Shown here piece by piece: positions 58,966 through 60,263 of a stretch of DNA of 64,000 nt (positions are counted from its first letter, which is position 1; every line of letters begins with the position of its first letter). A program made the position numbers. Source of the stretch: Escherichia coli O157:H7 (lineage in GTDB: Bacteria > Pseudomonadota > Gammaproteobacteria > Enterobacterales > Enterobacteriaceae); the NCBI RefSeq assembly GCF_013167455.1, contig NZ_CP038328.1; one strand, given 5' to 3'.

Positions 58966-60263
58966 TAAAACTTAGTTCGTTTTAAAGATTCTGCAGACAG
59001 TGTCTGCAGAATTCGAAACCGCTGAAATTAACGGAGTCTATAGCCTTCTTCTAGCACCGCCTGTGTTCGAACGAGTTCATCCGCGAGTCGTTTTTCATCA
59101 GGTAGTTGCATCTTATATTCACTCGCCAGAACGGTGTTAGGCAAACCAGCCAGTGCATAATGCGCTTCTCCGACTCCTTTCTCTGCACAGAGAACCAGAC
59201 CGATGGGCGGATTTTCATCCGGTAGCGTCCAGTGCTCTTTGGCGTAGTTGAGATACATATTCATCTGTCCGGCATCGCTATAGCTGAATTTGCCCACTTT
59301 TAGATCGACGATTAGCAGGCAGCGTAAACGGCGGTGGAAAAACAGCAGATCGACACGAAACCAGTTGTCATCAATGCGTAACCTTCGCTGCCGACCAACA
59401 AAGGCAAAATCATCCCCAAGTTCCAGCATGAAATCCATCAGGTGGTTGATCAGCGCCTCCTCAAAATCGGATTCTGAGTATTCATCTTTCAATTCCAGAA
59501 ATTCGAGCACAAAGGGATCGCGTATCGCCTGTTGCGGAAGAATATGCGTCTCGGCAGGAGCGTGTTGTTGCAGCATGGCTGATTTGTCATGTGACAGCAG
59601 TGTTCGCTCATAAAATTGGGTCGCAATTTGCCGTTCTAGCTGGCGAACAGACCAGCCACAGCGGAGCGTCTCTTTTTCATAAAAGCTGCGGGTGTCAGCG
59701 TTTTTAACGGAAAGTAAACGGACGTAAGTGGACCAGGGCAATGGTGTTAATTCGCCAGACACTGTCTGGCGAATTTCAACATGTTGAAAAAAGAGGTAAA
59801 AAAGCCTCATTTGGCGTAAGTTTTTTGCAGAGAACCCACGCTTATACCTTAGACTTAAATCCTTTGATAGTCGCTTGATTAGCTGCGCACCATACGCAGC
59901 CCTGGCCTCGCCACCTTGTTCAAATTCGACAATTCGTCGGCCAATTTCCCAGTATGTCGCGGTCATCAGCGCGTTAACGCTACGTACCGTTTCCGTCCGG
60001 GCGCTATCGACCAGGTGAATAATACCGTCGTGGATTTGCTGGTAGCCTGTTGAGGTTCTCTCTGAGAGCGATTCCATTATCTTTCCCTTTATATGGCGCA
60101 GTGTTGAATAATGGAATCAGCTATACGCCGGGCATCTGCCGGTAACAATCCAGATGTGCGTATTACATTGGTTTTCTTCAGATTATGCGAGGCGCTTTCC
60201 AGAACGAAAGGAGAATTTCAGCGCCGACTCTTTTCTGAGGAGGCGGCGCTGGGACAGAGCTTA

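What the first reader, a model, noticed from the sequence alone, without database searches (positions are those of the whole stretch)
60078..60260. gltD lies only ~180 bp from the DUF1016 gene; the gltF-yhcADEF block recalled from K-12 is absent
In E. coli K-12 as I recall it, gltBD is followed by gltF, the yhcA/yhcD chaperone-usher fimbrial genes, yhcE (IS5-interrupted) and yhcF before yhcG. Here a 183-bp spacer with a hairpin (CAGCGCCG...CGGCGCTG) separates the gltD stop from the DUF1016 gene start. This marks a strain-variable junction. The 349-aa DUF1016 ORF is also shorter than the ~375 aa I recall for K-12 YhcG.
Basis: partly seen in the sequence, partly recalled or inferred. Interest (0 to 1): 0.35.

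Follow-up and report, generated by a model that had tools for sequence, protein, structure and literature searches.

The report
Ordinary strain-variable gltD–yhcG junction
In this E. coli O157:H7 segment, gltD sits directly beside the nuclease gene yhcG, which is the ancestral and commonest arrangement (K-12's extra fimbrial genes are an insertion), and the shorter yhcG is the known 78-bp O157 lineage marker; that marker turns out to remove two copies of a conserved DNA hairpin built into yhcG-family genes.

Summary
gltD (60261-61679, minus strand) ends 183 bp from yhcG/DUF1016 (59028-60077, minus strand, 349 aa). No trace of gltF-yhcADEF exists in the window.

The window is E. coli O157:H7. 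Direct adjacency is ancestral, because other Escherichia species, Pseudocitrobacter, Citrobacter, Kluyvera, Superficieibacter and Salmonella arizonae show it too. The K-12 block is a 7,080-bp, 43% GC beta-class chaperone-usher 'yhc' island. It replaces 54 bp, occurs in 1,148 of 5,426 complete genomes, and is published as restricted to phylogroup A.

Four main alleles exist at this locus:
- intact direct adjacency: 2,418 genomes
- K-12 island: 1,148
- yhcG absent: 946
- yhcG 3' half replaced: about 720

The 349 versus 375 aa difference is an in-frame 78-bp deletion. It is the LSPA-6 yhcG lineage marker (394-bp amplicon) and occurs in 208 genomes. All of this is already known or ordinary.

One thing was unexpected. 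The 78 bp are exactly two of three 39-bp units. Each unit holds a perfect 27-nt palindrome that is conserved, with codon-specific compensatory changes, inside yhcG/DUF1016 genes across many bacterial phyla. Copies of it mark several allele boundaries here. I found no Rfam match and no paper describing it.

The parts
60261..61679 (-). gltD, glutamate synthase small subunit, 472 aa
   Evidence: ORF list. It is 99.4% identical to K-12 GltD by tblastn and is annotated gltD in identical O157:H7 records.
60078..60260 (.). 183-bp gltD-yhcG spacer, the ancestral junction
   Evidence: The same spacer, 183-188 bp long, is alignable throughout in E. whittamii, Escherichia sp. E1V33, an E. coli cryptic lineage and Pseudocitrobacter. 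Citrobacter, Kluyvera, Superficieibacter and S. arizonae have a positional homologue of about 210 bp.
60205..60258 (.). 54 bp that K-12 lacks; in K-12 the 7,080-bp gltF-yhcADEF island stands in its place
   Evidence: BLAST of the spacer against the K-12-like locus. Homology on the gltD side stops 2 nt past the stop codon (60259). Homology on the yhcG side stops at 60204. No target-site duplication is visible.
60219..60251 (-). GC-rich hairpin 11 nt after the gltD stop; probable 3'-end hairpin of the gltBD transcript
   Evidence: It is kept in other Escherichia, with a compensatory C-G to T-A change in E. whittamii. Other genera have a different GC-rich hairpin plus a T-run at the same place. 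It has no U-tract and was not called by the terminator scan, so its role is inferred.
60120..60148 (-). Candidate yhcG promoter: -35 TTGTTA (60143-60148), 17 nt, -10 TATAGC (60120-60125)
   Evidence: These blocks are conserved in the cross-genus spacer alignment (TTGAC-17 nt-TATTG in Citrobacter and Kluyvera). The match is 8 of 12 to consensus, below the scan's threshold, so this is an inference only.
60070..60118 (-). Inverted repeat pairing the yhcG start codon with its 5' UTR
   Evidence: The arms are 11 nt and 100% complementary. The fold is -16.8 kcal/mol with z only -1.8. It is conserved in K-12. A role is not shown.
59028..60077 (-). yhcG, 349 aa: DUF1016_N plus YhcG_C PD-(D/E)XK nuclease
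   Evidence: Pfam PF17761 at 5e-44 and PF06250 at 1e-56, both complete. PADLOC candidate defence family PDC-S02 at 2.5e-135 for the 375-aa form.
59738..59741 (.). Junction of the 78-bp in-frame deletion (two 39-bp units missing; codons 112-137 of the 375-aa form)
   Evidence: Alignment with O157:H7 strain 4276 and with K-12. A junction-specific 46-mer is found in 208 of 5,426 genomes.
59439..59832 (.). In-silico LSPA-6 yhcG amplicon, 394 bp (allele 1)
   Evidence: The primers were recalled from memory and both match the window exactly. The product is 394 bp here and 472 bp in strain 4276 and K-12. The published size for lineage I is 394 bases (PMC8733641).
59749..59775 (.). The one remaining intragenic palindrome, AATTCGCCAGACA-C-TGTCTGGCGAATT, encoding EIRQTVSGEL
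   Evidence: RNA fold -19.6 kcal/mol, z -5.0. It belongs to a family-wide covarying hairpin.
58987..59013 (.). Copy of the same palindrome outside the gene, 15 nt past the yhcG stop, between the convergent nanQ and yhcG
   Evidence: Fold z -4.7 (plus strand) and -3.9 (minus strand). Extragenic copies were seen only in Escherichia.
58504..58968 (+). nanQ (yhcH), last gene of the nan operon, convergent with yhcG

Best explanation
The window shows the ancestral enterobacterial arrangement gltB-gltD / short spacer / yhcG / convergent nan operon, as carried by E. coli O157:H7. Nothing has been lost between gltD and yhcG.

E. coli K-12 and its phylogroup-A relatives instead carry an inserted, low-GC, 7-kb beta-class chaperone-usher fimbrial island (gltF-yhcA-yhcD-yhcE-yhcF). 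That island replaced 54 bp of the spacer, including the old gltD 3' hairpin.

The spacer in the window holds the gltBD 3'-end hairpin and, by inference, the yhcG promoter.

The 349-aa YhcG results from an in-frame deletion of two of three tandem 39-bp units in an unstructured linker. This is the yhcG allele 1 of the LSPA-6 typing scheme for O157:H7. Both Pfam domains remain intact.

Each 39-bp unit holds a perfect 27-nt palindrome. The deletion most likely arose by replication slippage across the folded hairpins (inferred, not shown).
For: Identity of the window: it is 100% identical over 2 kb to O157:H7 genomes.

Ancestral state: gltD-yhcG-nanQ synteny, with a 183-230 bp spacer, is seen in E. 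whittamii, Escherichia sp. E1V33, Pseudocitrobacter, C. koseri, C. amalonaticus, C. gillenii, Kluyvera (2 loci), Superficieibacter and S. arizonae. The Escherichia and Pseudocitrobacter spacers align with the window's over their whole length, including the hairpin.

Island: it spans 7,080 bp at L001 13385-20464. GC is 43% without IS5, against 56-57% in gltD and gltB. It is present in only 1,148 of 5,426 genomes, all at 99% identity or more. It is published as phylogroup A only (PMC5216030). The spacer stretch shared with K-12 is only 76% identical, against 96-98% in the flanking genes. No remnant of the island is in the window.

Allele counts: 2,418 intact direct, 946 yhcG-less, about 720 with a replaced 3' half.

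Deletion: it is an exact 78 bp, equal to 2 x 39 bp. The amplicon is 394 bp versus 472 bp. The junction occurs in 208 genomes, almost all O157:H7-like. Literature.

Likely harmless to the protein: the deleted residues lie in a stretch with pLDDT below 50 (residues 103-133) in the AlphaFold model. Orthologues in Citrobacter and Kluyvera naturally have a single unit.
Against: I did not type phylogroups. The restriction to phylogroup A rests on a paper about ETEC and on the 99% identity of all copies.

One Citrobacter-like genome (L008) has a distantly related yhcA/yhcD/yhcF-like operon (29-44% aa identity) just upstream of its yhcG. So fimbrial operons have entered this site more than once, or the association is older than I infer.

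The island has no target-site duplication, integrase or terminal repeats, so how it inserted is unknown.

The K-12 allele and the yhcG-less allele (B2-type strains) share the same derived sequence next to gltD. I could not settle their order of origin.

The spacer hairpin lacks a U-tract, so 'terminator' is an inference.
Confidence: 0.9

Rival explanations
1. The O157:H7 lineage (and most E. coli) once had gltF-yhcADEF and lost it by deletion, so K-12 preserves the ancestral order.
For: K-12 is the reference in which gltBDF was described as one operon. A divergent yhc-like operon sits upstream of yhcG in one Citrobacter-like genome (L008).
Against: Nine of ten enterobacterial outgroup loci with a readable upstream gene have direct adjacency. 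The Escherichia outgroups have the very same spacer and hairpin. The block has foreign GC content. All its copies are 99% identical or more and occur in 21% of genomes. No remnants remain.
Confidence: 0.05
2. The short junction or the short ORF is an assembly or annotation artefact, such as a collapsed repeat or a mis-called start.
For: The missing 78 bp is repetitive and palindromic, which is the kind of sequence that assemblers and polymerases skip.
Against: The exact junction recurs in 208 independent complete genomes. It gives the 394-bp PCR product measured in the laboratory by many groups. The start and stop codons are the same as in K-12. 2,418 complete genomes share the direct junction.
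Confidence: 0.02
3. The repeated I-x-Q-T-x-S-(A/G)-(E/K/Q) units are a protein-level repeat, and the DNA palindromes are a by-product of that peptide.
For: The peptide motif is recognisable across phyla. Part of the core (CAG ACN ... TCN G) follows from Q-T-x-S-(A/G).
Against: Resampling synonymous codons gives 5.7 of 12 stem pairs, against 10.0 observed. The same residue pairs with different partners depending on its codon: Leu-CTC with GGAGAA, Leu-TTG with GCAAAA, Arg-CGC with GGCGAA, Arg-CGG with GCCGAA. Distant subfamilies keep a palindrome at the same spot with quite different peptides. The region is predicted to be unstructured. Copies also exist outside any ORF.
Confidence: 0.07
4. The palindromes are kept perfect by a mutational process (template switching at quasi-palindromes) rather than by selection for a function.
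For: Template-switch mutation is known to perfect quasi-palindromes (my own knowledge). There is no strand bias between G:T and A:C mismatches. No function is shown.
Against: A purely mutational process does not explain why the element stays at one codon position in genes only 30% identical across Proteobacteria, Actinomycetota, Fusobacteriota, Cyanobacteriota and Acidobacteriota. It also does not explain why it is about 30 times commoner there than elsewhere in the same genes.
Confidence: 0.15

Closest known systems
E. coli K-12 gltBDF-yhcADEF-yhcG region (beta-class chaperone-usher 'yhc' locus)
   Same: Same flanking genes in the same order and orientation: gltB, gltD, yhcG, nanQ-nanK-nanE-nanT-nanA-nanR. 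The flanking coding sequences are 96-98% identical.
   Different: The window lacks the 7,080-bp island and has 54 bp with a GC-rich hairpin instead. The part of the spacer it shares with K-12 is only 76% identical.
LSPA-6 yhcG marker of E. coli O157:H7 (allele 1, 394-bp amplicon; lineages I and I/II)
   Same: The window gives exactly 394 bp with the assay's primers, and strain 4276 and K-12 give 472 bp. The published allele size is 394 (PMC8733641).
   Different: Nothing differs. What the papers I could read do not say is that the 78 bp are two of three palindrome-bearing 39-bp units. The original description (Yang et al. 2004) was not available to me.
NucS/EndoMS and Can2/Card1 nuclease domains (PD-(D/E)XK fold)
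   Same: The C-terminal domain of the YhcG model matches P. abyssi NucS (2vld, E 1.5e-5) and EndoMS (5gke) best. This agrees with the published link to DUF91 and to archaeal Holliday-junction resolvases (PMC1189080).
   Different: Sequence identity is only 14-18% and TM-scores are 0.23-0.36. The helical N-terminal domain of about 200 aa has no solved relative. No activity has been measured.
Palindromic repeats inside coding sequence: Rickettsia palindromic elements (RPE), and REP/BIME elements of E. coli
   Same: Short hairpin-forming repeats that can lie in frame within a protein gene (RPE; my own knowledge).
   Different: RPE and REP are dispersed in many copies over many loci. The yhcG palindrome is confined to one gene family, sits at one fixed codon position, and in E. 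coli occurs only at this locus.

Membership tests
YhcG / DUF1016 family (Pfam PF17761 + PF06250) | DUF1016_N and YhcG_C domains both above Pfam's gathering scores | tested here: met
   150.1 bits (cut-off 32.8) and 191.3 bits (cut-off 32.5) for the 349-aa protein, each covering the full profile.
YhcG / DUF1016 family (Pfam PF17761 + PF06250) | PD-(D/E)XK catalytic residues (E ... D ... (D/E)-x-K) | tested here: met
   Read directly from the sequence: LELGDDF, RVDLLFF and IVDLKVGK in the translation. The E, D and K columns are invariant in the 29-sequence alignment (E245, D269, K286).
PADLOC candidate defence system PDC-S02 | Match to the PDC-S02 profile HMMs | tested here: met
   E 2.5e-135 over residues 8-370.
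PADLOC candidate defence system PDC-S02 | Protection against phage | not testable with these tools
   PDC families are candidates by genomic association only. I found no experiment on YhcG.
Beta-class chaperone-usher 'yhc' fimbrial locus | Presence of gltF, yhcA (chaperone), yhcD (usher), yhcE and yhcF between gltD and yhcG | tested here: not met
   No blastn or tblastn hit to any of them in the 64-kb window. The spacer is 183 bp.
LSPA-6 yhcG allele 1 (O157:H7 lineage I or I/II) | 394-bp product with the yhcG primer pair | tested here: met
   In-silico product 59439-59832 is 394 bp. The published size is 394. The primers were recalled from memory but match the window exactly.
Rho-independent terminator (for the spacer hairpin 60219-60251) | GC-rich stem-loop directly after the gene | tested here: met
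   The stem is 8 bp plus 3 bp, at -22.8 kcal/mol, 11 nt after the stop.
Rho-independent terminator (for the spacer hairpin 60219-60251) | U-tract immediately 3' of the stem | tested here: not met
   The stem is followed by AAAUUCUCCUUUC. It was not called by the terminator scan.
Dispersed palindromic repeat families (REP/BIME-like), for the yhcG palindrome | Many copies scattered over the genome | tested here: not met
   A 37-nt query finds a median of 2 places per genome, which is one site counted on both strands, and at most 5. All listed matches lie in yhcG or in unannotated intergenic DNA. The window holds 2 copies, both at this locus.
Any Rfam family, for the yhcG hairpin | Covariance-model match | tested here: not met
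   Only chance-level hits (E 0.4 or higher, far below gathering scores) over the three-unit region.

The most novel reading that the evidence does not exclude
yhcG/DUF1016 (PDC-S02) nuclease genes across bacterial phyla carry, inside the coding sequence at one fixed position just before the conserved (L/I)-x-W-(S/G/T)-H motif, a perfect hairpin-forming palindrome with 11-15 bp arms, a 3-5 nt loop and often AATT at the base. It is maintained by compensatory nucleotide changes that override the amino-acid sequence.

It would be a cis-acting nucleic-acid element embedded in an unstructured protein linker, and I found no description of it.

My best guess at a function is that it is a hairpin or cruciform bound or cut by the encoded NucS/Hjc-like nuclease, for example for self-control of a toxic defence nuclease. 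DNA rather than RNA is weakly favoured because there is no G:U bias.

In E. coli it is triplicated in tandem and copied to two intergenic sites. These copies coincide with breakpoints of the locus's structural alleles:
- the LSPA-6 78-bp deletion, which recurs with the same junction in a divergent strain
- the truncation of yhcG in about 720 genomes
- the single hairpin left in 946 yhcG-less genomes
- the gltD-side edge of the K-12 island
Probability: 0.5. Interest if true: 0.7.

Novelty: already known. Interest (0 to 1): 0.3.

Why it matters
As flagged, the finding matters little. It is a textbook case of accessory DNA (a cryptic fimbrial operon) present in the laboratory reference and absent from most of the species. 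It is a reminder that K-12 gene order is not the default. For O157:H7 work, it places the window in LSPA-6 yhcG allele 1.

The by-product could matter more. A structured nucleic-acid element hidden inside the coding sequence of a widespread, uncharacterised candidate defence nuclease would give a concrete handle on what YhcG recognises. It would explain why an epidemiological length marker exists at this gene. It would also add a case where nucleotide-level selection dictates a protein's linker sequence.

Tried and rejected
- I looked for remnants of gltF, yhcA, yhcD and yhcF, and for repeats or target-site duplications at the K-12 island ends. There are none; the only island-to-window match is the 29-nt palindrome.
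- I tested whether the palindrome is a dispersed REP-like family in E. coli. It is not.
- I tested Rfam and found nothing.
- I looked for a strand bias of G:T versus A:C mismatches, to tell an RNA hairpin from a DNA hairpin. There was none, so this is inconclusive.
- Tandem Repeats Finder does not report the three 39-bp units because the copies are too divergent. They were established by position and alignment instead.
- The consensus promoter and terminator scans call nothing in the spacer.
- I tried to read the original LSPA-6 paper (Yang et al. 2004). It is not held, so the '78 bp' rests on my alignment and on the published 394-bp size.
- The 101-aa 'transposase' of the truncated-yhcG allele has no Pfam, PADLOC or NCBIfam match, and I left it there.
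- I considered that the yhcG-less allele arose from the K-12 allele by deletion between the two flanking palindromes. The sequences fit, but the strains involved (B2-type versus A) make the order uncertain, so I do not claim it.

Full report
**What is there**

On the minus strand the window carries the end of gltB, whose frame is open to the window edge. It then carries gltD at 60261-61679 (472 aa) and a 349-aa ORF at 59028-60077. The ORF has complete DUF1016_N and YhcG_C (PD-(D/E)XK) domains. On the plus strand, nanR-nanA-nanT-nanE-nanK-nanQ run towards it.

The gap between the gltD stop and the yhcG start is 60078-60260, or 183 bp. On the gltD strand this hairpin folds at -22.8 kcal/mol, z -2.9.

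A 2-kb stretch across the junction is 100% identical to E. coli O157:H7 chromosomes.

**The comparison with K-12**

Aligning the window's spacer to that locus shows where homology ends. On the gltD side it ends 2 nt after the stop codon. On the yhcG side it ends at window position 60204. So 54 bp of the window (60205-60258, including the hairpin) correspond to 7,080 bp in K-12.

There is no target-site duplication. Neither the island's DNA nor its proteins match anything else in the 64-kb window, apart from one 29-nt palindrome discussed below. The 127 bp of spacer that both strains share are only 76% identical, although the flanking genes are 96-98% identical.

**Which state is ancestral**

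I fetched loci encoding close YhcG relatives from one genome per species and located the neighbouring genes by tblastn. The order gltD, then about 185-230 bp, then yhcG, then the convergent nan genes is found in:
- Escherichia whittamii
- Escherichia sp. E1V33
- a divergent E. coli lineage
- Pseudocitrobacter
- Citrobacter koseri, C. amalonaticus and C. gillenii
- two Kluyvera
- Superficieibacter
- Salmonella arizonae, where yhcG is a pseudogene

The Escherichia and Pseudocitrobacter spacers align with the window's along their whole length, hairpin included. E. whittamii has a compensatory C-G to T-A change in the stem. The other genera have a different GC-rich hairpin followed by a T-run at the same place.

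The K-12 block is 43% GC against 56-57% in gltD and gltB. It occurs in 1,148 of 5,426 complete E. coli genomes, every copy at 99% identity or more to K-12. A study of chaperone-usher loci describes it as the beta-class 'yhc' locus, found only in phylogroup A strains (PMC5216030).

The direct junction is therefore ancestral, and K-12 carries an insertion. One caveat: a Citrobacter-like genome (L008) has a distantly related yhcA/yhcD/yhcF-like operon (29-44% identity) upstream of its yhcG. So the site has received fimbrial operons more than once.

**How variable the site is**

| Allele | Genomes (of 5,426) |
|---|---|
| Intact direct arrangement | 2,418 |
| K-12 island | 1,148 |
| No yhcG; gltD 67 bp from nanQ | 946 |
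| yhcG 3' half replaced by a 471-bp segment with an unclassifiable 101-aa 'transposase' ORF; 183-bp spacer kept | 717-726 |
| IS insertions and other forms | about 190 |

The yhcG-less genomes include NC101, M1/5, O2:H6 and UPEC isolates, which I know as B2 strains. 'Strain-variable junction' is right, and it is ordinary accessory-genome variation.

**The spacer's likely contents (inferred)**

The hairpin directly after gltD is probably the 3'-end structure of the gltBD transcript. It lacks a U-tract and the consensus scan does not call it.

Blocks conserved across genera fit a weak sigma-70 promoter for yhcG: TTGTTA at 60143-60148, 17 nt, then TATAGC at 60120-60125. In K-12 the corresponding region also gives a divergent non-coding RNA, G0-10703 (PMC7967276).

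**Why the ORF is 349 and not 375 aa**

Alignment with O157:H7 strain 4276 and with K-12 shows one internal, in-frame 78-bp deletion that removes residues 112-137. Everything else is colinear.

yhcG is one of the six loci of the LSPA-6 lineage assay for O157:H7, and the lineage I amplicon is 394 bases (PMC8733641). The assay primers, which I recalled from memory, match the window exactly. They give 394 bp here and 472 bp in strain 4276 and K-12.

A junction-specific 46-mer, designed so that it cannot seed a match in undeleted genes, is found in 208 genomes. Nearly all of these are O157:H7-like. So the short ORF is a known typing marker.

The protein is probably unharmed. Both Pfam domains are complete, and DUF1016_N scores slightly better than in the long form. 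The deleted residues fall in a stretch with pLDDT below 50 (103-133) in an AlphaFold model. Orthologues in Citrobacter and Kluyvera naturally have the shorter linker.

**The unexpected part**

The 78 bp are exactly two of three tandem 39-bp units. Each unit contains a perfect 27-nt palindrome of the form AATTnnSCAGAC-NNN-GTCTGSnnAATT, which encodes I-x-Q-T-x-S-(A/G)-(E/K/Q). The three-unit region folds as three hairpins at -65.2 kcal/mol, z -10.3. The window keeps one unit at 59749-59775.

In 80 YhcG relatives from beta- and gammaproteobacteria, Acidobacteriota, Cyanobacteriota, Planctomycetota, Nitrospirota and others (55-98% identical proteins), the motif occurs one to five times per gene. 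The DNA forms on average 10.0 of 12 possible stem pairs, against 5.7 when codons are resampled synonymously; 89% of 123 instances are individually significant.

On 78 distinct instances, 90.7% of cells are paired, against 78.9% in shuffles and 22-45% when the partner is slid. The covariation score is 0.301 against 0.100 (0 of 500 shuffles). Three variable pairs each show 34-36 double changes.

The pairing follows codons, not residues:
- Leu-CTC goes with Gly-Glu GGAGAA (6 of 8), but Leu-TTG goes with Ala-Lys GCAAAA (7 of 7).
- Arg-CGC goes with GGCGAA, and Arg-CGG goes with GCCGAA.
- Val-GTG goes with GCACAA, and Val-GTC goes with GGACAA.

That rules out a purely protein-level repeat.

**The palindrome in distant family members**

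DUF1016 genes only 30-40% identical to YhcG keep a palindrome at the same position, just before the conserved (L/I)-x-W-(S/G/T)-H motif. These genes come from plasmids of Enterobacter, Rhodococcus and Haliovirga and from viral or prophage contigs. Their palindromes have different inner sequences, for example:
- AATTCTCGTATC-ACT-GATACGAGAATT
- GCAATTGGCCAACA-ACC-TGTTGGCCAATTGC
- CCAATTGCGTCCGC-ACT-GCGGACGCAATTG

Of 63 distinct genes, 35 have a hairpin of 10 or more pairs ending within 45 nt of the W codon, against 0.018 expected per equivalent window elsewhere in the same genes. In 36 genes it is the best hairpin of the whole gene.

No Rfam family matches. The papers I could search on YhcG, DUF1016 and PDC-S02 do not mention the palindrome.

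**What is known about YhcG**

- It is a PADLOC candidate defence protein, PDC-S02.
- It is often embedded in restriction-modification or BREX loci (PMC9881135).
- Its nuclease domain resembles NucS/EndoMS and archaeal junction resolvases (PMC1189080).
- Its deletion is synthetically lethal with weakened dnaB, dnaN and parE (PMC2672614).

**The palindrome and this locus**

In Escherichia, but not in the other genera examined, copies of the palindrome also lie outside the gene:
- 15 nt past the yhcG stop (window 58987-59013)
- directly after gltD in the K-12 allele
- as the only sequence of note between gltD and nanQ in the yhcG-less allele

The truncation in the fourth allele begins at the edge of the third unit.

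The identical 78-bp deletion junction occurs in strain SI-NP020, whose flanks are only 96.8% identical to the window. So the deletion has either recurred at the same nucleotides or been transferred.

The element is not dispersed elsewhere in E. coli genomes. These coincidences suggest that the hairpins are fragile or recombinogenic points. That is an inference, and I could not settle the order of events between the K-12 and yhcG-less alleles.

**Verdict**

The finding is accurate and its interpretation holds, but both of its points are already explained. The first is an accessory fimbrial island in K-12 and phylogroup A. The second is the LSPA-6 yhcG length marker in O157:H7. On its own terms it deserves a low score.

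The palindrome is the part worth following. The evidence for nucleotide-level conservation is strong. Its function, and whether it acts as DNA or RNA, are not established. No strand bias in wobble-type mismatches was seen.

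Noticed in passing
window 59749-59775 and 58987-59013; L002 3850-3954; loci L005-L170: A family-wide perfect palindrome lies inside yhcG/DUF1016 coding sequences at a fixed codon position, with codon-specific compensatory changes across phyla. It is tandemly triplicated in full-length E. coli yhcG. There is no Rfam match, and none of the papers searched mention it.
   Followed up: yes
L171 (E. coli SI-NP020) 812-1861, compared with window 59028-60077: The identical 78-bp deletion junction occurs in a strain whose 3-kb flanks are only 96.8% identical to the window and whose nanQ side is closer to K-12. 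The deletion has either recurred at the same nucleotides or been transferred.
   Followed up: partly
L003 3070-3136; L001 20413-20466: In 946 yhcG-less genomes, the 67 bp between nanQ and gltD consist essentially of one yhcG-type palindrome with A/T-rich flanks, which looks like a bidirectional terminator. The same 13 nt plus palindrome follow gltD in the K-12 allele, so the two alleles share a derived gltD end. The order of events is unresolved.
   Followed up: partly
L004 3075-3545: About 720 genomes have the 3' half of yhcG and the downstream palindrome replaced by a 471-bp segment. It carries a 101-aa ORF annotated 'transposase' that matches no Pfam, PADLOC or NCBIfam model. The break lies at the edge of the third intragenic hairpin.
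   Followed up: partly
window 60070-60118: An 11-nt perfect inverted repeat pairs the yhcG start codon (ATAATGGAATC) with its 5' UTR, leaving the Shine-Dalgarno sequence in the loop. It is conserved in K-12. The folding z-score is only -1.8, so any translational control is speculative.
   Followed up: partly
L010 (Citrobacter gillenii) 5700-5812 and 7100-7210: yhcG and its upstream spacer are flanked by a 111-bp direct repeat of the 3' end of gltD (94% identical). Two large ORFs (390 and 426 aa), not identified here, follow before nanQ. This looks like integration by a single crossover at gltD.
   Followed up: no
L008 (Enterobacteriaceae bacterium MGYG-HGUT-00110) 479-4968: A distantly related chaperone, usher and subunit operon (29-44% aa identity to YhcA, YhcD and YhcF) lies just upstream of yhcG. 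This is a second, independent fimbrial operon at the same site. Whether gltD lies beyond it could not be seen.
   Followed up: no
L074 (Salmonella enterica subsp. arizonae) 5974-7046: yhcG is a frameshifted pseudogene next to gltD, yet it still keeps an 11-of-12-pair palindrome. About 2.8 kb of other DNA separates it from nanQ.
   Followed up: no
L088 (Enterobacter hormaechei IncHI plasmid) 2745-5005; L087 (Aeromonas plasmid) 1923-8942: Distant DUF1016 genes overlap the end of a site-specific integrase gene by 4 bp (L088), or sit between hsdM and hsdS of a type I restriction system (L087). These are typical mobile or defence contexts, unlike the chromosomal gltD-nan position in Enterobacteriaceae.
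   Followed up: no
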